Shown: positions 15,810-63,997, counted from the stretch's first letter. The stretch: DNA of 64,000 nt from a virus (IMGVR_UViG_3300028583_002208); one strand, 5' to 3'. Numbers and translations are program-made. Notes: generated by a model not told the origin, from the letters alone.

Positions 15810-16538
15810 TTATTCTCCTTCATTGTTTTGATCTTTTATTGCTAAAGCGTCTATGTGCTTTTCAAAATTATTAAGGTATTCATAAACCCTATCGTCTACA
15901 AGACCACGGTATCTTTTAGCCAACACTTTCGCTAATCTAACTTTCTCTTTTCTGTAAAGCTCATAACCCTCTTTTGGACAAGTTGTTCTCCCCAGTGTTT
16001 TATTCTTACCGTCTAGTTGGGCACAAGATACTATATATTTTCCACCTGACTTAGTGTACCCCTTCTGCCACGAAACCCCTGCATAACCAGATTTACTTGA
16101 CCTCCGTCTGAAAGTTAAAAAACTATTTATAACTATAGGGATGAATACACAAGTGTCTTCTGAATATACCTTACCTTCTTCCGATAAAATATCCTTGTCC
16201 AAAACCCAACCTTTGTTATTGAAACCTGTTTGTTGTCTACACCACTCCACAAAATAATTATAATCTTTGAAGTTATCTGATAAAGAAACTCCTGTATAAC
16301 AGAAGTCTCCTTTTCCCGTATGCTGGGATCTAACTCTGCTACACATATTAGTATGCAGACAGCCCTCTTTAGTCTGTAAGTTTCTACCACAAGAACCCTT
16401 ATAGACTTTATTATATTTACCATCTACGAAGGTTGCAGGTAACCTTTCTCTGTGATCACTTCTTATATTTTCCAAGAGATACCTCTCGTTCCTTAGCTTT
16501 AACAACTGTCTTACATAAACCACCACGAACAATGTCAT
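15810..16538 (-). CDS. AP2-domain endonuclease-like protein (HNH-AP2 homing-endonuclease type)
   Basis: 'SGYAGVSWQKGYTKSGGKYIVSCAQLDGKNKTLGRT...YELYRKEKVRLAKVL' is an AP2 DNA-binding domain. The N-terminal Cys/His-rich segment is compatible with HNH. It overlaps the 3' end of phoH. Confidence 0.5.
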   Translation of the reverse strand: MTLFVVVYVRQLLKLRNERYLLENIRSDHRERLPATFVDGKYNKVYKGSCGRNLQTKEGCLHTNMCSRVRSQHTGKGDFCYTGVSLSDNFKDYNYFVEWCRQQTGFNNKGWVLDKDILSEEGKVYSEDTCVFIPIVINSFLTFRRRSSKSGYAGVSWQKGYTKSGGKYIVSCAQLDGKNKTLGRTTCPKEGYELYRKEKVRLAKVLAKRYRGLVDDRVYEYLNNFEKHIDALAIKDQNNEGE

Positions 16539-20302: not shown

Positions 20303-21312
20303 TTACATGCGGCAACTTTCACAGTCGTCTTCTTCATCTTCTAAAATAGAAGTTGCTGCAACCGTGGCCTTAGTCTCATCTTCTTTGATACCACCTTTAC
20401 TATTCTGATAGTATAAACTTTTAAGCCCCATTTTAGTAGCGTAGAAGTAATCTTTCATCATTACAGTAAGAGGTACTTTTTCACCTTCATACTTACTGTA
20501 GTTTGTGTAAAGGTCACAACTAATACCTTGTCCATGAAACTTTTGGAAGATAGCATAACAATCTATAATATCCTTAGTAGGTACATTATAAGCAAGTTCA
20601 TAACTATTCTTAACTTCTTCCTTCTCAATATCAGGTGCTGCAAAAGTATTCACTGTACTACCAGAACGCTTAACAGTGTAAAATTCACGTATAGGGTATA
20701 AGCTGTTGGTAGTCTCGCTTGCTTGAGAGCTACTTTCAGCAGGAGGAGTTGCCTCTAGTACCGAGTTACGTATACCACCTTGCCTTATGATTCCCTTACG
20801 TAAACTTTCCCAATCAAATTTCAAACCTTGGCTATGTACATCATCTACGTTTTTATTGTACGTGTCAATAGGTAGCCAACCTTCAGGATACTTAGTCCTA
20901 TCTATTAAAGAACAGTTACCCTTTTCTTTTGCTAAACGTAAACTTGCACTGTGTAAGTAGAAGCTGTGCATTTCAGCCAAAGAGTGCATGTAATTCTTAC
21001 CCTCTAAGCTACTATAACTCAAACCTCTTACTGCCATATCATGTGCTAGATTGGTAATACCTATACCTACACTACGTCTACCTTTAGCAGTGTTCTCCAC
21101 TTGAGGGAAAGGATACTCCATCAAATCGATAACATTATCAACTGCTAGAAGAGAATAATAAGCTACATCTTCATATTCTTCTTCTGAAATTCTTCCTGCA
21201 ACTAAACAACTTAGGAAACATAAAGCAATTTCACCTGCCTCAACTCCTTTATTCTTATCATACATATCTACAACGTTTAAATAACCTTTAGTAGGTAAAA
21301 ATATTTCTTGAC
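20303..21312 (-). CDS. nrdA: Class Ia RNR large subunit NrdA, exon 2 (C-terminal half)
   Basis: Upstream of the annotated ATG the frame stays open and reads 'QEIFLPTKGYLNVVDMYDKNKGVEAGEIALCFLS...', aligning with E. coli NrdA 'LEIALPTKPLNDVNDENGEIALCTLS'. It ends with the KSLYYQN and C-terminal CxxC tail. Confidence 0.85.
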
Positions 21313-21566
21313 TATAAGATCCCCTATTTTAATAAGGGTATGGATCATATCATCATCCGTTCTGGATGTCGGGCGCTAATGTGGTTATTAAGTTCTCAAA
21401 CCCCACTGATCTCTGGACGTTCTCTATCCTTAGAGCTTCGCTGCTGATTGCCATCTACTAACTAAAACACACTCGCTTCTCAGCGATAATGCAAAGCCTA
21501 GTTAAGGTTTCCAGTCAATTCACCCAATTATTCAATACGTGTCCCCACGTAAGGCTGCGTCATTTC
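21313..21566 (-). mobile_element. Group I-type self-splicing intron (ORF-less, ~254 nt) in nrdA
   Basis: The exon-1 frame hits TGA 3 nt past the conserved 'SSNL'. Joining ...aatctgt | gtcaagaa... restores 'SSNLCQEIFLPTK' (the NLC-EI radical-site motif). P1 can form between exon 'cugu' and intron 'gcag' with a U-G pair at the junction. R-like 'cagagaucag' and S-like 'gauaugaucc' elements are present. Boundaries are good to +/-1 nt. Confidence 0.7.
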
Positions 21567-22833
21567 ACAGATTGCTACTATAGATTGTATCTTTAAAAGG
21601 AGTATGCAAATTCATTTCATCTAACCAAGTGTGGTATTTACGGCCTGTATCACCACGTTGAGTTAAGAATAGTTTTAATACTTCAAAAGAGTTAACAAAC
21701 CTCTTCTTTCCTTCACTCTTTTCATAAGATTGATAAGCTTTCTTAAACTCGTCATAGCCTTTAAAATGTGCTTCATATAATTCAGGAGAATCATAATAAG
21801 ATACCAACATCCAAGGTTCTTTTCTAGAAGCTTTTTCAGCTAATAGTTTTGTTGCTCCCATCGAATAATCAAGTCCACGTATACGCTTATCTTCTATCGT
21901 GGTAGGATGCTTCAATCGTAACAAGGTTTCTACTTCTGGGTCAAGTACTGTGTAATGTACTGTCGCACCACCACCTCTAACTTCCTGCTTAGTAGACTTA
22001 ACCGCCCCTTGTAAATAACGGTAGTAAGGTATCTTTCCTGTATGTTTATCGGGCTGAGATCTTATAGGGTCTTTAACAGAACGAGTAGTTAAAGTACAAC
22101 CGATACCAGAGGATGCATTAGTAAACTTATAAGCAGCATGTACTAAATTCTCAATAGAGTCTGCAGTATCTTCTGACTTAATTACACAACAGCTAGCAAA
22201 ACCTTTAAAAGAAGTTCTCAAACCTGCTAAGAAAGGTGTTGGCATATTGATCTTCAAGTCGCTTAAATATGTGTATAGCTTCTCAACATCTTCTAATCTA
22301 CGCTCATCAGGTTGTGTTTCCATCACCTTCATTGCAATGCCCATGAAAGCATATTGAGGTGTTTCACAAACTACACCATTTAGCTTCTTCGCATACTTAG
22401 TGCTTATTTGTTTTACTGTAGATAACTTATAATTCAAATCTTTGTCATTATCTAAAACACTATCAAGATAATCTAAGTCAGAGTCATCATAATCCATGTA
22501 CTCCCATACACCAGCAGATGTCATTTTATAATAGAAGTCTGGTAAAGATGGCCTCTCTTCGAAACCCCCGTGTACAGTTTTATACAAAGAACCTAAATAT
22601 AACCTAGCTGCCATATCTAAATGTTCAGGAGTTTTCTTATCAGAGCAAGCGTCAATTAATGCTTGTTGCAACTCTTGTGTTGAACACTTATCTTCTACTT
22701 TACGTAATGCATCAAAAACTAACCCTGACCAACAAATACCTATTGTTGAACCCCACTCTGCCATACGGTTCAATTTGTCAGGAGAAAACTCTACAACATC
22801 ACCATTACTTTTAGTAACATAGTTTATACTCAA
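21567..22833 (-). CDS. nrdA: Class Ia RNR large subunit NrdA, exon 1 (ATP-cone plus N-terminal catalytic half)
   Basis: 'VTKSNGDVVEFSPDKLNR' is an ATP-cone. '...RKYHTWLDEMNLHTPFKDTIYSSNL' aligns to E. coli '...RIYIQNVDHCNTHSPFDPAIAPVRQSNLC'. Confidence 0.85.
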
Positions 22834-26685: not shown

Positions 26686-27378
26686 CTACTCCTCTAAATA
26701 ACCATCTTTTCTAATGAGTAGTTCTTCTTTATGGTTACGTAAATATTCAAATATTTGTAACTTCCTTGAAGCTGCATTCTTTTCAGGGACTATACCTTTT
26801 TTCTTCAAGAAAGTGTTTTGTCCTTTGGCTGTTTTACTTTCCGCAATCATTTGTTTATGTGCCGATGCATCGTTAAAACTTTTAAACCCGTATTTATCTT
26901 TATACTTGTCATAATGAGAAATCACTTTGTGAAACTCAGTATCAATTATCTGCATATTATCCTGACTTGTCAATAGTCTTAGAAAATATATCAGAGCCTC
27001 TGGGACATTTGTACAACTTCCTGCGGGGTCTATATGATCAACATTATAAGTAGCAAACCTTTGCCCTTTAGGTTTTGAAGCTTTTAAAATCTTACCTGTT
27101 TGTTCACATATATAAGCTTTATAGGTTACTTGTTGCCCTTTCCTTTTACCCGTTTTAAAGTAAGTAGGGTTACCTTTGTCATCTAACTTAGGGATATCTA
27201 CTTTCCTTTTAGCTTGGTAATCGTTTTTGAGAATCCAATCTGACCAAATACTTCTGAATTGGCTCCTCAACCAATCTACATACTGACCTTCTGTAGTCCA
27301 GATAGATCCTTCCCACTTCCAAGGTTGATGGTGTTGTATTTCCTTTAACAACTTGTTAATGAATTCATCTTCTTTCAA
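26686..27378 (-). CDS. HNH endonuclease-like protein
   Basis: 'CEQTGKIL...ATYNVDHIDPAGSC' fits the C-x2-C ... VDHIxP HNH core. Basic overall. Confidence 0.45.
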   Translation of the reverse strand: MKEDEFINKLLKEIQHHQPWKWEGSIWTTEGQYVDWLRSQFRSIWSDWILKNDYQAKRKVDIPKLDDKGNPTYFKTGKRKGQQVTYKAYICEQTGKILKASKPKGQRFATYNVDHIDPAGSCTNVPEALIYFLRLLTSQDNMQIIDTEFHKVISHYDKYKDKYGFKSFNDASAHKQMIAESKTAKGQNTFLKKKGIVPEKNAASRKLQIFEYLRNHKEELLIRKDGYLEE

Positions 27379-57331: not shown

Positions 57332-57406
57332 GCGAGATTAGTTTAATTGGTAAAATAGTAGCCTTCCAAGCTTCAGTCATGGGATCGTAACCCATATCTC
57401 GCTCCA
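57332..57406 (+). tRNA. tRNA-Gly (anticodon UCC), CCA encoded; slightly non-canonical
   Basis: Acceptor gcgagat/atctcgc (7 bp). D-arm gttt/aaat. Anticodon arm gtagc-ctTCCaa-gcttc with one U-U mismatch. T-arm atggg-atcgtaa-cccat. Discriminator U, then CCA. Confidence 0.6.
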
Positions 57407-58510: not shown

Positions 58511-58547
58511 AAGCCCCAGTCGCCTCTCCTCGGCTGGGGCTTTTTCT
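58511..58547 (+). terminator. Rho-independent terminator
   Basis: aagccccagtcg...cggctggggctt, then TTTTTC. Confidence 0.6.
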
Positions 58548-58621
58548 TGCCTAAAATTTGACATACTTTAATAATAGGAATATAATCCTCACAATTAGAT
58601 GTCTAAGAGAGCGACAGAGCA

Positions 58622-59047
58622 ATGAACAAACTTAACGAGTATGATTACACCACTTACTGTGAAATAACGTTCCACACGCCTCAATATAACGGTATTCCTC
58701 ATTATATTTATTCAAGGCAAGGGAATTTATTAGCCGAGATATGTCCTGAAGGTAAGCTTACTATTTACAGAGGGTATAGTTGGAATGTTTGGAGATGTAT
58801 TGGAGAAGAGGAGATCACTGTTCATGGCGAAAGTGTGATGTATTTGCCAAGTTTAGTGTTAGACGTTTTACGCCAAATGTATAGACATTCTCACGGATTG
58901 GACGGTTATGATAAGATCACCATTCACAAATATTATAAACAACTTATGAAAGAGTGTGGACTTTGTAAAGGAAAAACTTTTATAAATTATTCTTTTGTGA
59001 GAATAGCTGCTTTTTGGCGTAAGGTGAGTTGCAAGTGGAGGTGTTGA
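58622..59047 (+). CDS. hypothetical protein
   Basis: 141 aa, Cys/Trp-rich. Confidence 0.4.
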   Translation: MNKLNEYDYTTYCEITFHTPQYNGIPHYIYSRQGNLLAEICPEGKLTIYRGYSWNVWRCIGEEEITVHGESVMYLPSLVLDVLRQMYRHSHGLDGYDKITIHKYYKQLMKECGLCKGKTFINYSFVRIAAFWRKVSCKWRC

Positions 59048-59123
59048 CTTTGTTGGGATGGTGTGGTAGTATTGGGTAAATGATGATAGTTTTTAATAAT
59101 GTTAATTTTATGGGGAGAGGAAT

Positions 59124-59435
59124 ATGAAAGAGTTTAAATTTATGAATGGTTGTGAATTAGAAGCAACAAAAGAAGTGTTTCAACTTTTAGAAGGTAATCC
59201 GTTTTGCCATACATGGGGTATGTATAGAGAAGGTGATTTGGAAAAGGTTTGTATTTGTTTCAAGGATATTTCAGGAGAAGAGTATTTACTGGAATGGTAC
59301 AGCAATCAAGAAGACCTTTTTGAAGTTTATTCTGATTTAACAGATATTGATTTGGGTATGGAGTTTTATGATTATAAACTTGTCAAGGATGTAGTAAATT
59401 ACCTAAACAGTTTACCACACTTTAGAAAGATTTAG
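59124..59435 (+). CDS. hypothetical protein
   Basis: 103 aa. Confidence 0.4.
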   Translation: MKEFKFMNGCELEATKEVFQLLEGNPFCHTWGMYREGDLEKVCICFKDISGEEYLLEWYSNQEDLFEVYSDLTDIDLGMEFYDYKLVKDVVNYLNSLPHFRKI

Positions 59436-59451
59436 TCTTGGAGGAGTAGAT

Positions 59452-60261
59452 ATGATCTGGAATAATATCACCTTTCCTGTCAAAGAAGAGTGGAAAGATA
59501 TCGAAGGTTACGAAGGTATTTATAAAGTTAGTAATTATGGCAGGGTGAAGAGTCTGTCCAGAGATATTCACTACCACAGGAACGGAAAAATGACTTCTAT
59601 CTTTAAGAAAGGAAGGTTACTTAAACCCAAGACAGACAAGGATGGTTATAAAGAGTTATGTATGACTTCCTCTGAAGGTATTAGGAAATACAAGAGAGTG
59701 CACCGTATCGTGGCAGAAGCTTTCTTAGAAGAAACTCACATAGATAACGCTGTGATAGACCACATAGATAATACCAAAGACAATAATATTTGGTACAATC
59801 TGCAATGGATGACTTCTACTCAGAATACTATAAAGTATTACGCAGAAGATTACAGTAAAAGTAGAACTTTAAGTTCCTTAACAAAAGAGGAGTTTGCTAG
59901 GATAGGTGAACTTTACAATAAAGGTTTACTTTACCCTGAGATTATAGATGAAATGGGTTTGACGGTAGAAAGTCCCTCCACTTTATGGGAAGTTCTATGT
60001 GGGAGAAGGTTGTCTAGCGTATCTGGTTTTAAAGAGGGAGATTTTAAAACAAGACCTCACCCTACTACGAAATTAACTGAAGATGATGTAGTACAAATAA
60101 TTAAAGAAAGAATTATAGATAAACAAAAGTTAAAAGTGTTGTCAGAGAAATGGGGTGTAGCTGAGTCCATGATAAGTAGATTTACTAAAGGTACTCGACA
60201 ACCTTCCGCTTATATTAAATTCAAAGAAAGGTATAATTATGACAAAGAAAAAGAAGAGTGA
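59452..60261 (+). CDS. HNH homing endonuclease with NUMOD4-type N-terminal module; free-standing, abutting terL exon 1
   Basis: 'IEGYEGIYKVSNYGRVKS' is NUMOD4. 'HRIVAEAF...IDHIDNTKDNNIWYNLQWMTSTQN' is the HNH core. The C-terminal region is HTH-like. Its 3' end overlaps the terL exon-1 start in another frame. Confidence 0.75.
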   Translation: MIWNNITFPVKEEWKDIEGYEGIYKVSNYGRVKSLSRDIHYHRNGKMTSIFKKGRLLKPKTDKDGYKELCMTSSEGIRKYKRVHRIVAEAFLEETHIDNAVIDHIDNTKDNNIWYNLQWMTSTQNTIKYYAEDYSKSRTLSSLTKEEFARIGELYNKGLLYPEIIDEMGLTVESPSTLWEVLCGRRLSSVSGFKEGDFKTRPHPTTKLTEDDVVQIIKERIIDKQKLKVLSEKWGVAESMISRFTKGTRQPSAYIKFKERYNYDKEKEE

Positions 60262-60346
60262 ACCACTCTTCAAACCCGCCAGTGAGAAGCAAGCTCTTAT
60301 TCTTAAAAGGGCTTCTGACACACAGGTGACTATTATTGGTGGAGCT
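60239..60346 (+). CDS. terL: Large terminase subunit TerL, exon 1 (N-terminus up to the first half of Walker A)
   Basis: ATG at 60239 with a GAAAGG RBS. Translation 'MTKKKKSEPLFKPASEKQALILKRASDTQVTIIGGA' then hits TAA. 'Q..L......Q..IIGGA' is the typical TerL region before the P-loop, and it is missing from the ORF track. Confidence 0.7.
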
Positions 60347-60592
60347 TAAAAATCCAGTGGTTCCACATTAAATAACCCTGCTAATTCGATGAAGGCTAAG
60401 TGTACTACATAAGCTAATATCGAGCCGAATGATTAAATTCATGGGTGTAGAGATCAATCGTGATGAGTGTAACGATGTAGGGGCCAAGTGGCTTCCAAAC
60501 GTAGGGCTATGTTATAACATAGAAGATATGATCCGACAACACAGGAAACTGTGGAAAGAGAGTAACGCCTCTAAAACTGATCCTGAAAAATG
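60347..60592 (+). mobile_element. Group I-type intron A in terL (ORF-less, ~246 nt), splitting the Walker A motif
   Basis: Exon 1 ends ...GGA, exon 2 begins (A)GSGKS. P1 forms between exon 'ggagcu' and intron 'gguucc' with a terminal U-G, and the intron ends in G (60592). R-like 'gagaucaa' and S-like 'aagauaugauccg' elements are present. Confidence 0.65.
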
Positions 60593-60928
60593 GCTGGTTC
60601 AGGAAAAAGTTATCTATTGCAAATGATCCCTTTAATGTTAATAGATGATCCCAATTCGGAAATGGTAATGTTCCGTAGAACTAATCCCCAGATAAAAGGT
60701 GCGGGTGGTATATTTAGCACAGGTTGCGGAATATACAATCAGCTCCCTCCTAATATAAGACCAAAGATTAAAACAGGTGACCTAGAAGTTATATTCCCTA
60801 CCAAAGACGAGAAAGGTAGGCGTAGTTATAATGGTGCCAAGATAAAATATCAACAAGCAGAAAATGTAGAACAAAGTAAACTAAATGCCCAAGGTTTGCA
60901 ATGGACTTTTGTTGGTATAGATGAGGGT
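60593..60928 (+). CDS. terL: TerL exon 2 (ATPase: Walker A second half to Walker B)
   Basis: '(A)GSGKSYLLQMIPLM...' completes the P-loop, and '...LQWTFVGIDEG' is Walker B. The frame then hits TAA at 60929. Confidence 0.8.
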
Positions 60929-61182
60929 TAATTGTAGCCCCTTAATGTAGGAATACATTTAGAAAATCCCGTGAATTCAGGGGAAGCCTCTAGTAGGTAA
61001 TCCTGAGCGAAGCTCGAAAGAGAACGTGCAACGACTATCCTGAAAAGGAGTACACAACAAGCTAATGGTTGTGGAAGCGCGGGACACCTAGAACAGGTGA
61101 TGATATAGTCTGAACTTCTATGGTGACATAGAGCAGCCATAATAGGCGGAAGATGACTTGCAAACATCTTTGAACACAATTG
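60929..61182 (+). mobile_element. Group I intron B in terL (ORF-less, ~254 nt), inserted just after Walker B
   Basis: Canonical group IA-type core: R element 'caacgacuauccug' and S element 'gaugauauagucug' (P7 GACUA/UAGUC). A U-G P1 forms between exon 'gggu' and intron 'gccc'. It ends in G (61182). Joining gives '...VGIDEG|TQFEWSQIEYF...'. Confidence 0.75.
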
Positions 61183-62298
61183 ACACAATTCGAATGGAGT
61201 CAGATAGAATATTTCATGTCTCGACTCAGGTCACAATCAAAACATTTCTCCCGTATGGTTATATCTTGTAACCCGTCACCCTCTCATGAGATTAAGAAGA
61301 TGATCTCATTCTACTTGACAGATGACGGATATCCTGACCCTAAAAAGGACGGTTTAGTTAGGTATTTCATACAAAGAGACGGTGAGTACATATGGGGAGA
61401 AACAAGGGAAGAATTAGGAACAAGGTTTGATATTCCTGAAAAAGATTGGGAAAACTTAATTCTATCTTTCAGCTTCGTGAGCGCAAATATTTATGATAAT
61501 CCTCCGATGATTGAGAGCAACCCAGCTTACCTCGGCTTCTTAGAAGGTTTGAATGAAATTGACAAAGCTCAACTATTACATGGTTGCTGGGCAGAATTTG
61601 CATTCGGAAGTAAATACTTTAAACGTGATTGGATAGATCACGTAGATAAAGTACCTACAGATGGTCTCACTGTTAGGGCATACGATTTCGGAGCATCTGA
61701 AAGAACCATGTCAAACAAGAACCCCGATCCAACAGTAAGTATAAAAATGCATAAAAGTAAAGATGGCTATTATACTTTAATGGGTGATTACCACGAAGAC
61801 TTCTATGACAAAGTGGATGATATTCAAGGGGCAATGTATCTCAGTTCTGGGGAAAGGGATAGAGTAATGTTAAAACAGGCTGCATTTGACGGTTCAGAAG
61901 TTTACCTTGTTGGTCCGCAAGATCCTGCTGCGGCTGGAAAAGCCCTTTGGAATCAACAAGCTAAGTACTTTGCAGAAGAAGGTTATATTTATAAAAAAGA
62001 CCCCATGCCTATAACAAAGAATAAACTTACCAAGTTCTTACCTTTTGCAACAAGTGCAGAGAATGGTTTGATACGTATAGTTAAGTCCACTTTTTCAGAG
62101 AACACTTATAATCATATAATGAAACAGTTGGAAAACTTTGATGGTGAAAGATCAACCAAAACCAAAAAGGATGACTTTGCAGATGCTATAGCTTCGGCTT
62201 ACAACTTCCTATCCAAAGAAAGAGTAATCCGCGCCTACAGCCTCCCAGACACCACTTCTCCAACAGCTTACACCTCTTACCGCAAGTCTATCCGATGA
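61183..62298 (+). CDS. terL: TerL exon 3 (ATPase C-motif plus RNase H-like nuclease domain)
   Basis: 'SRMVISCNPSPSHE' is the TerL coupling motif (ISTP-like). 'RAYDFGAS' and 'KDDFADAIASAYNF' carry the nuclease acidic residues. Confidence 0.8.
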   Translation, partial: TQFEWSQIEYFMSRLRSQSKHFSRMVISCNPSPSHEIKKMISFYLTDDGYPDPKKDGLVRYFIQRDGEYIWGETREELGTRFDIPEKDWENLILSFSFVSANIYDNPPMIESNPAYLGFLEGLNEIDKAQLLHGCWAEFAFGSKYFKRDWIDHVDKVPTDGLTVRAYDFGASERTMSNKNPDPTVSIKMHKSKDGYYTLMGDYHEDFYDKVDDIQGAMYLSSGERDRVMLKQAAFDGSEVYLVGPQDPAAAGKALWNQQAKYFAEEGYIYKKDPMPITKNKLTKFLPFATSAENGLIRIVKSTFSENTYNHIMKQLENFDGERSTKTKKDDFADAIASAYNFLSKERVIRAYSLPDTTSPTAYTSYRKSIR

Positions 62299-62443
62299 CG
62301 GGAAGTGGGTTCTGTTGCCAAAATAAACCCCTTGTGTTATAATATCTCTTATAACAAGAATTAATAAAGTTTCCGTAATAATATAACATTGCGGGAACAT
62401 CTACATTTAGGAGAAATGTTCTCCTTTCCTAACAGGAGATACA

Positions 62444-63997
62444 ATGGCTAATAAGACTAGGCGCAGACGGAAGAAAAATAACTCTTCTGAACGTGCTAAC
62501 ATGGCTGCAACAAATGCCACTCCCCCTAATTCAACTCGTGAACAACGTTCCGCTAATAAGCAATTATCCACTGCAGCAATAGAGTTTGTCAAGCGTCAAA
62601 TTGATATCCTTAAACCTTGGGAACTCAGTCGGACGCAACGACTCACCACTTACCAGCAAATGTTAAACGATGATGCAATAGCTACTTGTTTTTCTGCAAG
62701 AAGTATGGCTGTTGCAAAAGCTCAAGCTAAAGGTAAGTTCAAATATGATGTAAACTCAGAAGAGTCACTTCGCATCAAAGAGTTCCTTGAATATAACATG
62801 GAAAACCTTTTTGGACAAACCCCTTTAGTTGTAGGTATGTGTTCTGCTGCAATGATCCGTGATGGATGGTCACCTTTTGAGATGGTGTTTGAAAATGGTG
62901 ATGCAGAATGGAATGATAAGTGGAAGCTTAAAAAACTTGCTTATATCCATCCTCTCACTTTAGATAAGATCACTCCTTGGACAACTACACCTAATGGAGA
63001 CAGAATAACCTCTTTGAATCAATCGCAATCAGCTTTTGAAGGTGTGGATGGTGTTCGTTCAATAGGGTTCAATGGATTCAAAGGTAATACAGGTGTGCAA
63101 CCTATCTCCTTTAATCGAGTAGCTTATTGCTCATATTCATCGACTCCTACACAACCTGCTGGAATTTCAGTATTTGATTCAGCTTATATCCCTTGGAAAG
63201 AGAAACAACTTTTACAAGATTTAACATTGATTGGTGTTCAAAAGGATATGGCGGGTATGCCTGTTCTTGGTGCTCCAAGTTCATTGTTAGCTGCGGCCTC
63301 TGATAACCCAACGGGACCAGAAGCTAGAATGGTTGAACAATTGAAAGATAACCTTGCCAACTTACATGCTGGTGACCAAAGTTATTGTGTTCTTCCAACA
63401 GATACACATTCTGAAAATGGTGCAGGTGCAGCGCAGTTCAAACTTCAATTCTTAGGGATCGAAGGAAGCGGGAAAAACTTTGATATAATGGAATTAGTTG
63501 AACAACGTAAACGTGCAATATACAACTGTTTCGCATGTCAGAATATGTTATCAGGTGAAAACGGTGGCGGAAGTTACAACCTTTTAGAAGGGCAATCTTC
63601 TATACAAGCACACTTTGTTGAACTAGATACCATGATCATAGATGATATGTGGAATAAGCAAATTTTCCCTAAGTTGATGAAACTTAACAATTGGGATTAT
63701 AAAGCTTCGGACATGCCTAAATGGAAAGCGGGTAATGTTCAGAAGATATCTGCTGATGAAGCGGGTAAGCTTGTTTCACGTACAAAGAGTATTCTACCAG
63801 CGCATCCAGACGTTATAAACTATGTTCTCGATATGATGGATGTAGACTACCGTGTTCCAATTGATACACCTGCGGAAGTGTTAAGAGAAATGCTTTTCGA
63901 TATACAGGATAATCAAGGAGAAGATAATGGTGGTACATCAGGATCTGGGAACAATGCACAGGATAATTCAGATGTTAACAATGAAAATGCGGCATAA
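62444..63997 (+). CDS. Portal protein (by synteny and size)
   Basis: 517 aa, immediately downstream of terL. Basic N-terminus and acidic G/S/N/D-rich C-terminal tail are typical of portals. No decisive motif. Confidence 0.5.
   Translation: MANKTRRRRKKNNSSERANMAATNATPPNSTREQRSANKQLSTAAIEFVKRQIDILKPWELSRTQRLTTYQQMLNDDAIATCFSARSMAVAKAQAKGKFKYDVNSEESLRIKEFLEYNMENLFGQTPLVVGMCSAAMIRDGWSPFEMVFENGDAEWNDKWKLKKLAYIHPLTLDKITPWTTTPNGDRITSLNQSQSAFEGVDGVRSIGFNGFKGNTGVQPISFNRVAYCSYSSTPTQPAGISVFDSAYIPWKEKQLLQDLTLIGVQKDMAGMPVLGAPSSLLAAASDNPTGPEARMVEQLKDNLANLHAGDQSYCVLPTDTHSENGAGAAQFKLQFLGIEGSGKNFDIMELVEQRKRAIYNCFACQNMLSGENGGGSYNLLEGQSSIQAHFVELDTMIIDDMWNKQIFPKLMKLNNWDYKASDMPKWKAGNVQKISADEAGKLVSRTKSILPAHPDVINYVLDMMDVDYRVPIDTPAEVLREMLFDIQDNQGEDNGGTSGSGNNAQDNSDVNNENAA

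What the first reader, a model, noticed from the sequence alone, without database searches (positions are those of the whole stretch)
59452..60346. Free-standing HNH endonuclease overlapping terL exon 1, next to ORF-less introns
None of the three introns encodes its own endonuclease. However, an NUMOD4-HNH gene ends 20 nt inside terL exon 1, and other HNH-family genes (15810-16538 HNH-AP2; 26686-27378) are scattered in the early region. This is the arrangement seen where free-standing endonucleases mobilise nearby introns or adjacent DNA.
Basis: inference. Interest (0 to 1): 0.55.

Follow-up and report, generated by a model that had tools for sequence, protein, structure and literature searches.

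The report
Homing endonuclease slot beside terminase gene
A selfish DNA-cutting enzyme gene sits directly in front of a marine phage's DNA-packaging gene, which is split by two self-splicing introns; close relatives carry other nuclease genes or nothing in that spot, so this is a clear but already known kind of mobile-element hot spot.

Summary
ORF 59452-60261 encodes an intact 269-aa I-HmuI-like NUMOD4-HNH endonuclease. Its last 23 nt overlap the start of terL.

The gene lies in a fast-changing slot. Phages with 89-95% identical flanks carry a GIY-YIG gene, a 78-aa fragment, a zinc-finger nuclease-like gene, or nothing. The breakpoints fall at start codons. One HNH-bearing relative lacks intron 2 exactly.

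HNH homologues (42-93% identity) sit upstream of terL in all ten other lineages checked. In eight of those ten the P-loop codons are interrupted by an intron or intein. The same intron family also occurs behind GIY-YIG, T5orf172 and short NUMOD4 nucleases, and an HNH homologue sits beside an uninterrupted terL. The HNH is therefore a free-standing homing endonuclease, not a dedicated partner of these introns.

Cleavage and splicing were not tested. The arrangement matches the published terL locus of Vibrio phage ICP1. It is a new member of a known kind, of moderate interest.

The parts
58558..58586 (+). Perfect sigma-70 consensus promoter (TTGACA-17-TATAAT), just after a terminator-like hairpin at 58511-58542. 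It could drive ORF141-ORF103-HNH-terL as one transcript.
   Evidence: pattern match only
58622..59047 (+). ORF141, a conserved upstream gene of unknown function. It is the left anchor of homology with HM1, J2-1, L010, L029 and L042.
59094..59123 (.). Left breakpoint zone. Homology with HM1 and J2-1 ends at 59093. Homology with the GIY-YIG-bearing L009 and L010 ends at 59118.
59124..59435 (+). ORF103, an orphan protein-coding gene with no Pfam or PHROG match. Against L029 its dN/dS is 0.06. It occurs with the HNH (window, L029, L043/44) and without it (L042). It is absent from other HNH loci (L031).
59452..60261 (+). Free-standing NUMOD4-HNH homing-endonuclease gene of 269 aa, I-HmuI-like, with two C-terminal helical HTH-like modules.
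   Evidence: dN/dS 0.087 against the L029 copy
60253..60271 (+). 8-bp inverted repeat (GAAGAGTG-aac-CACTCTTC) spanning the HNH stop codon, 15 nt into terL. In relatives it is kept with one A-to-G change that would still form a G-U pair in RNA.
60239..60346 (+). terL exon 1 (MTKKKKSEPLF...TIIGGA). All slot variants rejoin homology exactly at this ATG.
60347..60592 (+). Group I intron 1, ORF-less, inserted in the Walker A codons (GGA^AGSGKS). P1 is GUGGAGCU/GGUUCCAC with a U-G pair at -1. P10 is GCUGG/CCAGU.
   Evidence: 48.6 bits; homologues up to 75 bits; hand pairing; intronless orthologues read GGAAGSGKS; alignment
60593..60928 (+). terL exon 2 (AGSGKSYLLQ...FVGIDEG), running from Walker A to Walker B.
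60929..61182 (+). Group I intron 2, ORF-less, inserted after Walker B (IDEG^TQF). It is exactly absent from relative L029, where the junction reads GATGAGGGG|ACACAA.
   Evidence: 97.1 bits
61183..62298 (+). terL exon 3 (rest of the ATPase domain plus the nuclease domain). The spliced TerL is 519 aa.
62224..62298 (+). 3' end of terL, encoding the lineage-specific C-terminal tail (IRAYSLPDTTSPTAYTSYRKSIR). It is the right breakpoint where homology with J2-1 resumes (62224; for HM1 it resumes at 62143).

Best explanation
The ORF is an intact, selected, free-standing I-HmuI-like HNH homing endonuclease gene. It occupies a dedicated, fast-turning-over slot between the upstream genes and the terL start codon.

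Proposed mechanism: during mixed infection the enzyme nicks or cuts terL DNA of relatives that lack it. The cut is probably in the conserved 5' part of terL, near the Walker A codons about 100 nt downstream of the HNH stop codon. Recombinational repair then copies the HNH gene in, together with adjacent terL sequence (exon 1 and intron 1, sometimes more).

The two ORF-less introns are independent, older residents of terL's two most conserved motifs. They are carried along passively (homing in trans). The P-loop intron may also break up the nuclease target and so protect its own genome. The introns are not tied to this particular nuclease, because several unrelated nuclease genes replace each other in the same slot.

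Shown here: domain identity and fold; kept catalytic residues; purifying selection; exact presence/absence boundaries for the HNH and for intron 2; the constant position of the family upstream of terL; uneven divergence around the slot.

Inferred only: cleavage activity; the target site; the direction of transfer; intron-based immunity; splicing.
For: Identity and integrity of the protein:
- NUMOD4 and HNH_3 domains.
- Sequence match to I-HmuI at 1.2e-14.
- The AlphaFold model (pLDDT 84) has I-HmuI as its only significant PDB fold match, E=1e-8.
- H104, N112, N116 and N125 are invariant in 28 homologues.
- dN/dS is 0.087 against the L029 copy.

The gene is optional, with exact boundaries:
- L009 and L010 are 95% identical in the flanks and carry both introns. 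They have a 295-aa GIY-YIG gene in place of 59119-60238.
- L042 replaces 59456-60238 with a 78-aa ORF.
- L050 has a zinc-finger nuclease-like gene in the slot.
- HM1 has nothing in the slot.

The family is specific to this position. In all ten other lineages examined, the homologue lies directly upstream of terL.

Tract-like divergence:
- Window against L029, dS is 0.35 for the HNH and 0.19 for exon 1, and intron 1 differs by 3.7%. Flanking genes give dS 0.57-0.76.
- L029 and L042 differ by 1.5% in the flanks but 4.4% across terL (Fisher p=2e-9). They also differ in slot content and in intron 2.

Intron mobility:
- Intron 1 is 83% identical to an intron at the same GGTGGAGCT^GCTGG site in the terL of Vibrio phage 1.161.O. 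That terL matches the window's only weakly at protein level (26% identity where tested on the near-identical L042 copy).

Published precedent: the same layout in Vibrio phage ICP1, and the region upstream of terminase described as a nuclease hot spot (PMC10055350).
Against: - No cleavage or splicing data exist.
- Three- and four-way comparisons did not give a clean, polarised co-conversion tract next to the slot.
- The low divergence of intron 1 could reflect structural constraint on the ribozyme rather than recent transfer.
- Exon 1 is only 36 codons, so its dS is noisy.
- The loci examined were found through the HNH or through the intron. The co-occurrence counts are therefore biased by how the loci were sampled.
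Confidence: 0.6

Rival explanations
1. Strict collaborative homing. The HNH cuts intronless terL exactly at the intron 1 insertion site in the Walker A codons. Intron 1 protects the HNH-bearing genome. HNH and intron spread together as a unit, as F-CphI and the psbA intron do in cyanophage S-PM2.
For: - The layout matches the published model (PMC6083498; PMC10055350).
- Eight of the ten other HNH-family lineages have the P-loop codons interrupted by an intron or intein.
- Divergence between window and L029 is lowest over HNH, exon 1 and intron 1.
- In every intron-1-family locus found by an intron-based search that held enough upstream sequence (6 of 8 stretches), a nuclease gene lies directly upstream.
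Against: - The same intron sits behind GIY-YIG, T5orf172, short NUMOD4 and fragment ORFs, so it is not tied to this HNH.
- HNH homologues in 184E37.1 and F88 sit beside an uninterrupted terL.
- P-loop insertions in HNH-bearing loci fall at three different intron positions plus an intein position. One shared recognition site is therefore unlikely.
- L029 carries the HNH without intron 2.
Confidence: 0.25
2. Packaging accessory. The HNH is a working partner of the terminase, needed for genome end formation, as HK97 gp74-type HNH proteins encoded next to terminase genes are.
For: - The position directly upstream of terL is conserved across the family.
- The literature notes that a packaging role and a homing role need not exclude each other (PMC10055350).
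Against: - The gene is dispensable. Relatives with the same terL at 91-95% nucleotide identity lack it (L009, L010, L042, L050), and HM1 has an empty slot.
- Its architecture is that of homing enzymes (NUMOD4 + HNH + HTH modules, I-HmuI fold), not the small HK97-type HNH.
Confidence: 0.05
3. Inactive passenger. The gene is a decaying remnant that no longer cuts DNA and is merely linked to terL.
For: Decay does happen in this slot. L042 holds only a 78-aa fragment with a weak HNH-family match.
Against: - The ORF is full length.
- Catalytic His and Asn residues are invariant across 28 homologues.
- dN/dS is 0.087.
- A good Shine-Dalgarno sequence (GGAGGA) lies upstream of the ATG.
Confidence: 0.05

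Closest known systems
Vibrio phage ICP1 terL locus (T5orf172 nuclease gene next to the N-terminal exon of a spliced terL; Barth, Dunham & Seed 2023, PMC10055350)
   Same: A free-standing nuclease gene lies directly upstream of terL exon 1, and an ORF-less intron splits terL. The authors also call the region upstream of terminase a hot spot for different nuclease classes, and offer nuclease turnover as an alternative to partnership.
   Different: The nuclease here is a NUMOD4-HNH, not T5orf172, although T5orf172 genes fill the same slot in relatives L046 and L051. terL here has two introns. Splicing was shown by RT-PCR in ICP1 and is not shown here. I did not test whether the ICP1 intron belongs to the same family or sits at the same site.
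F-CphI and the psbA intron of cyanophage S-PM2 ('collaborative homing'; Zeng, Bonocora & Shub 2009, cited through PMC6083498)
   Same: A free-standing endonuclease gene lies beside a gene that holds an ORF-less group I intron.
   Different: F-CphI has an Endo VII-type fold, and it was shown to cut the intronless allele while the intron blocks self-cutting. Neither point is shown here, and HNH-intron linkage is loose in this group.
I-HmuI (Bacillus phage SPO1 intron-encoded HNH nicking enzyme, PDB 1U3E)
   Same: Same N-terminal DNA-binding domain and HNH core. It is the best sequence match and the only significant fold match. The D-H...N...N catalytic residues are kept.
   Different: I-HmuI is encoded inside an intron of the DNA polymerase gene and is 174 aa. 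This protein is free-standing, is 269 aa with two extra C-terminal helical modules, and sits next to terL.
T4 free-standing homing endonucleases (SegF, SegG; MobE, which mobilises the defunct I-TevIII intron in trans; PMC2790892, PMC2988022)
   Same: Optional genes lying between conserved genes. They spread by cutting the neighbouring gene in genomes that lack them and drag flanking DNA, including a neighbouring intron, along with them.
   Different: Different loci (nrd genes, gene 56, gene 32). Their cleavage and marker exclusion were shown experimentally.
TerL intein hot spots in mycobacteriophages (Kelley et al. 2016, PMC5050341)
   Same: Selfish elements insert in the Walker A (P-loop) and Walker B motifs of TerL. 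The HM1 intein lies between the invariant Lys and Thr, which is the classic P-loop intein site.
   Different: Those are inteins removed at protein level. The window has group I introns removed at RNA level.

Membership tests
I-HmuI-like HNH homing endonuclease (NUMOD4 + HNH_3) | N-terminal NUMOD4 DNA-binding module | tested here: met
   Pfam PF07463, E=4.2e-14, residues 12-68
I-HmuI-like HNH homing endonuclease (NUMOD4 + HNH_3) | HNH motif with the catalytic His and metal-binding Asn kept | tested here: met
   PF13392, E=1.3e-7. D103-H104 and N125 align with I-HmuI D74-H75 and N96. H104, N112, N116 and N125 are invariant in 28 homologues.
I-HmuI-like HNH homing endonuclease (NUMOD4 + HNH_3) | Overall fold like I-HmuI, with a C-terminal helical DNA-binding part | tested here: met
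   The model has pLDDT 83.8. Foldseek gives 1U3E at E=1e-8 over 189 columns as the only hit below 1e-3. The C-terminal modules give only weak HTH matches.
I-HmuI-like HNH homing endonuclease (NUMOD4 + HNH_3) | Site-specific nicking or cutting of a cognate DNA site | not testable with these tools
   Needs purified protein and substrate DNA.
Free-standing homing endonuclease gene (intronless homing) | Optional gene between conserved genes, with exact presence/absence boundaries in close relatives | tested here: met
   L042: homology breaks at 59455 and resumes at 60239. L009 and L010: breaks at 59118 and resumes at 60239. HM1: empty slot.
Free-standing homing endonuclease gene (intronless homing) | Same genomic position across divergent hosts (site specificity) | tested here: met
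   Directly upstream of terL in all ten other lineages examined.
Free-standing homing endonuclease gene (intronless homing) | Co-conversion of flanking markers | tested here: inconclusive
   dS dips over HNH and exon 1 (0.35 and 0.19, against 0.57-0.76 in flanks). L029 against L042 gives 4.4% in terL and 1.5% in flanks, p=2e-9. The polarity could not be resolved.
Collaborative homing pair (free-standing nuclease plus ORF-less intron) | ORF-less self-splicing intron in the gene next to the nuclease gene | tested here: met
   Two introns without ORFs lie 86 nt and 668 nt downstream of the HNH stop codon. Splicing itself was not tested.
Collaborative homing pair (free-standing nuclease plus ORF-less intron) | Nuclease cuts the intronless allele at the intron insertion site, and the intron blocks self-cutting | not testable with these tools
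   Needs cleavage mapping.
Collaborative homing pair (free-standing nuclease plus ORF-less intron) | Nuclease gene and intron are inherited together | tested here: not met
   The same introns occur with GIY-YIG (L009, L010) and a 78-aa fragment (L042), and at least intron 1 occurs with a zinc-finger nuclease-like gene (L050). The HNH occurs without intron 2 (L029). An HNH homologue sits beside an uninterrupted terL (184E37.1).
Group I intron (Rfam RF00028) | Match to the covariance model at or above the gathering score | tested here: met
   Intron 2 scores 97.1 bits. Intron 1 scores 48.6 bits, just under the cut-off of 50. Other P-loop introns in this alignment reach 75 bits: 75.4 at the same site (L013) and 75.7 three nt downstream (L036).
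Group I intron (Rfam RF00028) | U before the 5' splice site, G as last intron base, P1 and P10 pairing, and an intact reading frame after removal | tested here: met
   Read from the sequence. The spliced protein reads GGAAGSGKS, as in intronless RYC and Shewanella phage 1/4. L029 lacks intron 2 exactly and reads IDEGTQF.
Group I intron (Rfam RF00028) | Self-splicing of the transcript | not testable with these tools
   Needs RT-PCR or in vitro splicing.
HK97 gp74-type packaging HNH | Conserved, required component of the packaging module in all close relatives | tested here: not met
   Absent from L009, L010, L042, L050, HM1 and J2-1.

The most novel reading that the evidence does not exclude
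The 5' end of terL in these marine phages may be a standing battleground.

- At least four unrelated nuclease families compete for one slot at the terL start codon and aim at the nearby Walker A codons.
- Introns (three positions) and inteins (two positions) within those nine codons could persist because they break up the nuclease targets, acting as armour rather than as pure parasites.
- As a by-product, whole terL 'bodies' of three very different types (about 26-32% identity in pairwise protein matches) are exchanged between phage genera. Each lineage keeps its own last ~25 residues of TerL, perhaps the part that docks on the portal.

The body-and-tail pattern is seen twice. In the Pseudoalteromonas (Qingdaovirus) group the window, HM1 and J2-1 carry types A, B and C. 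In a Vibrio phage group 1.187.O, 184E37.1 and 1.161.O carry types A, B and C. In both groups homology resumes about 75-155 nt before the terL stop codon.
Probability: 0.3. Interest if true: 0.65.

Novelty: new member of a known kind. Interest (0 to 1): 0.42.

Why it matters
Free-standing homing endonucleases are thought to shape phage genomes by forcing gene conversion at essential genes, but few natural loci show the process in close relatives. This locus offers:
- four alternative occupants of one slot in phages with nearly identical flanks;
- an exact intron presence/absence pair;
- two assemblies (L029 and L042) that differ almost only here.

It is a ready test bed for three questions. Do such nucleases mobilise neighbouring introns? 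Do P-loop introns protect against them? Can the enzymatic body of the terminase be swapped between phage lineages while a short lineage-specific tail is kept?

There is also a practical point for annotation. terL in these genomes is called only as its last exon in J2-1 and is split into several fragment CDSs in the other Vibrio and Shewanella phage records.

Tried and rejected
- IMG/VR scans with the HNH protein found only distant homologues (42% identity or less). Scans with ORF103 found nothing. Useful relatives came from the large protein search and contig look-ups instead.
- A three-way informative-site test (window, L009/L010, L029) looked for a co-conversion tract next to the slot. The apparent L029-like sites at 60230-60238 lie inside the HNH gene itself. 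Exon 1 and intron 1 have too few informative sites, so no clean tract emerged.
- A four-way test asked whether intron 2 travels with flanking exon markers. The result was mixed and no polarity could be assigned.
- Rfam did not report the J2-1 terL introns or L029 intron 1 at E<=0.01 and E<=0.001 respectively, even though alignment shows they are homologous. Rfam misses are therefore not evidence of absence here.
- The idea that ORF103 belongs to the HNH cassette was rejected. L042 has ORF103 without the HNH, and L031 has the HNH without ORF103.
- The packaging-HNH idea was rejected because the gene is optional.
PHROGs did.

Full report
**What is there.**
The window is part of a marine phage of about 130 kb. 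Its closest GenBank relatives are Pseudoalteromonas phages HM1 and J2-1 (genus Qingdaovirus), at 87-90% nucleotide identity over about half of the last 24 kb. ORF 59452-60261 (+) encodes a 269-aa protein.
- Pfam gives NUMOD4 (E=4e-14) and HNH_3 (E=1e-7).
- The best solved-structure match by sequence is the SPO1 homing enzyme I-HmuI (1U3E, E=1e-14).
- An AlphaFold model built on 28 homologues (pLDDT 84) has I-HmuI as its only significant PDB fold match (E=1e-8).
- The catalytic D-H and Asn residues align with those of I-HmuI. H104, N112, N116 and N125 are invariant in the family alignment.

**The terL gene.**
I worked out the splice sites from the sequence.
- Exon 1 is 60239-60346.
- Intron 1 is 60347-60592. 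The 5' exon ends in U, paired with G in an 8-bp P1 (GUGGAGCU/GGUUCCAC). A 5-bp P10 (GCUGG/CCAGU) fixes the 3' site.
- Exon 2 is 60593-60928.
- Intron 2 is 60929-61182 and ends in G.
- Exon 3 is 61183-62298.

The spliced protein is 519 aa. Its P-loop reads IIGGAAGSGKS, exactly as in the intronless terL of Vibrio phage RYC and Shewanella phage 1/4. Intron 1 therefore lies inside the Walker A codons, and intron 2 lies directly after Walker B (IDEG^TQF).

Rfam scores intron 2 at 97 bits and intron 1 at 48.6 bits, just under the cut-off of 50. P-loop introns in relatives, one at the same site and one three nt downstream, reach 75 bits. Neither intron holds a credible ORF.

The HNH stop codon (60259-60261) lies 23 nt inside terL.

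**The slot is polymorphic, with exact boundaries.**
Homology with HM1 and J2-1 ends at 59093. It resumes only at 62143 (HM1) or 62224 (J2-1), inside the last 155 or 75 nt of terL.
- HM1 has no gene in the slot. Its terL is a different type (type B) with a LAGLIDADG intein between the P-loop Lys and Thr.
- J2-1 has a GIY-YIG gene in the slot. This gene is split across the ends of the record and is not annotated. Its terL is a third type (type C), with a P-loop intron and a second intron that holds a LAGLIDADG ORF.
- Two IMG/VR contigs (L009, L010) are 95% identical to the window and carry the same terL with both introns. They have a 295-aa GIY-YIG gene in place of 59119-60238, and homology resumes exactly at the terL ATG.
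- L029, a 137-kb contig in assembly GCA_022075445.1, has ORF103, a 93%-identical HNH and intron 1. It lacks intron 2 exactly; the junction reads GATGAGGGG|ACACAA, still encoding IDEGTQF.
- L042 (GCA_022075865.1) has ORF103 and both introns. The HNH ORF is replaced, from its ATG to the terL ATG, by a 78-aa ORF whose sequence looks to me like the tail of an AP2 domain and which gives a weak HNH-family PHROG match (E=0.009).
- A short metagenome contig (L050) carries the same terL 5' part (exon 1, intron 1, exon 2). Upstream it has the C-terminal end of a gene with a weak treble-clef zinc-finger match; I read it as a T5orf172-like nuclease gene, but Pfam gave no T5orf172 hit.

**The HNH family is tied to terL, not to these introns.**
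A search of 5.8 billion proteins found 46 homologues at E<1e-20. In all ten other lineages I looked up, the gene lies directly upstream of terL, usually overlapping its start codon by a few bases. The downstream terL varies:

| Locus | What lies downstream of the HNH homologue |
|---|---|
| L031, L043/44, L048/52 | type A terL with two introns |
| L029 | type A terL with intron 1 only |
| L034 | type B terL with an intron |
| L035 | terL with three or more introns, one holding an HNH ORF |
| L036 | a T5orf172 nuclease gene, then terL with a P-loop intron |
| L038 | type C-like terL with two introns |
| L040 | terL with a probable P-loop intein |
| Vibrio phages 184E37.1, F88 | uninterrupted type B terL (read in 184E37.1; the F88 record ends at the HNH gene) |

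Eight of these ten lineages therefore have interrupted P-loop codons. The interruptions fall at different codon positions: GGA^A, GGAA^G, GGSRFGG^K, and an intein at GGSAG^C.

I also searched for the intron itself. A 22-nt core of the intron 1 family found eight stretches in IMG/VR and metagenomes. Of these, L052 repeats L048 (the same P0002-type locus as L031) and the GIY-YIG pair is L009's contig and L010. In each locus a nuclease gene lies directly upstream of terL exon 1. These were a T5orf172 gene twice, the GIY-YIG gene, the long HNH, a short NUMOD4 gene (HNH domain not detected by Pfam) and the zinc-finger type. Vibrio phages F100 (short NUMOD4-HNH), K470 (zinc-finger 'endonuclease') and 1.187.O (GIY-YIG, three introns) repeat the pattern.

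The intron is thus always found with a nuclease gene, but with any of several.

**Signs of transfer.**
- Intron 1 is 83% identical over 243 nt to the intron at the same GGTGGAGCT^GCTGG site in Vibrio phage 1.161.O. That phage's terL exons are unalignable at nucleotide level and show only about 26% protein identity to type A where tested.
- Window against L029: synonymous divergence is 0.64 (ORF141), 0.57 (ORF103), 0.35 (HNH), 0.19 (exon 1), 0.59 (exon 2) and 0.76 (exon 3). Intron 1 differs by 3.7%. The HNH-exon 1-intron 1 block therefore looks more recently shared than its surroundings. Ribozyme constraint and the small size of exon 1 weaken this inference.
- L029 against L042: these are nearly the same phage, with 1.5% divergence in 4 kb of flanks. 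They differ by 4.4% across terL (p=2e-9). Mismatches cluster on both sides of the intron 2 site, and the two contigs differ in slot content and in intron 2. I could not assign a direction.
- The HNH is under purifying selection (dN/dS 0.087).

**Interpretation.**
The gene is a working free-standing homing endonuclease in a terL-specific slot. The most economical mechanism is intronless homing. The enzyme cuts terL of co-infecting relatives, and repair copies in the nuclease gene and neighbouring terL DNA. The introns ride along and may protect the resident P-loop.

Strict collaborative homing would mean the HNH cuts the intron 1 insertion site and the intron shields its own genome. That remains possible but is not favoured, because linkage between this HNH and these introns is loose.

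A packaging role like that of HK97 gp74 is unlikely because the gene is optional.

**Comparison with what is known.**
Barth, Dunham and Seed described the same layout in Vibrio phage ICP1: a T5orf172 gene beside the N-terminal exon of a spliced terL. They called the region upstream of terminase a hot spot for nuclease genes. They proposed nuclease turnover as an alternative to collaborative homing (PMC10055350). The collaborative homing model itself comes from F-CphI and the psbA intron (PMC6083498). TerL P-loop and Walker B motifs are known intein sites (PMC5050341). Splicing HNH-bearing terL introns are known in Certrevirus phage CB7 (PMC7344957). This finding is a well-documented new example, not a new kind.

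**Beyond the finding.**
TerL 'bodies' of three very different types occur in both the Pseudoalteromonas phage group and a Vibrio phage group. Each group keeps its own C-terminal tail of about 25 residues, and nucleotide homology resumes about 75-155 nt before the stop codon in both groups. This suggests cassette exchange of the enzymatic part of terminase with a lineage-specific tail kept. It is the most novel lead here.

Noticed in passing
window 62143-62298; L001, L002, L004, L005, L013: TerL bodies of three very different types (A, B, C; about 26-32% identity in pairwise protein matches) are swapped within two phage groups, while each group keeps its own ~25-aa C-terminal tail. The Qingdaovirus group tail is IRAYSLPDTTSPTAYTSYRKSIR and the Vibrio group tail is RGRFSGSGLSSGSSKLSAHKSRIQ. 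Nucleotide homology resumes about 75-155 nt before the terL stop codon in both groups.
   Followed up: partly
L002 3444-6074 (HM1); L040 4294-6102: HM1 terL is an 876-aa ORF with a LAGLIDADG intein between the P-loop Lys and Thr. It starts with Val rather than Cys or Ser, which is unusual. L040 terL appears to carry a short intein after YGGSAG (starting with Cys).
   Followed up: partly
window ~21266-21605 (- strand): [quoted passage not shown] The exon ORFs are 21565-22833 and 20303-21265.
   Followed up: partly
window 15810-16538 (-) and 26686-27378 (-): Two further free-standing HNH-type genes. They have no Pfam hit but match phrog_953 (3e-45) and phrog_1985 (4e-26). The first looks to me as if it has an AP2-like DNA-binding part.
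   Followed up: partly
window 59124-59435: ORF103 is an orphan gene with only four homologue clusters among 5.8 billion proteins, all in this slot region. It is under purifying selection (dN/dS 0.06). Its function is unknown and it is not strictly linked to the HNH.
   Followed up: yes
window 58511-58586: A strong terminator-like hairpin (12 bp) is followed directly by a perfect sigma-70 consensus promoter, upstream of ORF141. A second near-consensus promoter (11 of 12 positions) lies at 62315-62343, upstream of the portal gene.
   Followed up: no
window 60253-60271: An 8-bp inverted repeat spans the HNH stop codon just inside terL. It is kept in relatives with one change that would give a G-U pair in RNA. 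It may affect terL translation or mark the recombination joint.
   Followed up: no
L002 7240-8297 (HM1), matching window ~63466-63470: The HM1 portal gene carries an insertion of about 1.06 kb with a weak group I intron match (36 bits). The insertion is absent from the window's portal gene.
   Followed up: no
L029 9311-10501: In the close relative L029, a 396-aa CapR/DUF723 gene lies between the portal and protease genes. Other genes with CapR/DUF723 matches examined here (K470's 'endonuclease', L036 4368-5552) match nuclease PHROGs, so it may be a nuclease gene; I did not test it. The site lies just beyond the end of the window. terL and portal may thus be bracketed by nuclease genes, as in the published 'HEG islands'.
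   Followed up: no
L003 1-560 plus L001 1-457 (J2-1 record ends): The J2-1 GenBank record has a short terminal overlap. It splits an unannotated GIY-YIG gene across its two ends. Its terL is annotated only as the last exon.
   Followed up: partly
L045 4001-6374: In another relative, homology with the window ends in the middle of ORF103 (59255). It is followed by a 439-aa protein of unknown function (phrog_4756) and a 135-aa HNH fragment (phrog_953). No terL was found within the contig part held.
   Followed up: no
window 57332-57403: A tRNA gene (Rfam 57 bits) lies about 2 kb upstream of the slot. Vibrio relatives also have a tRNA near their slot.
   Followed up: no
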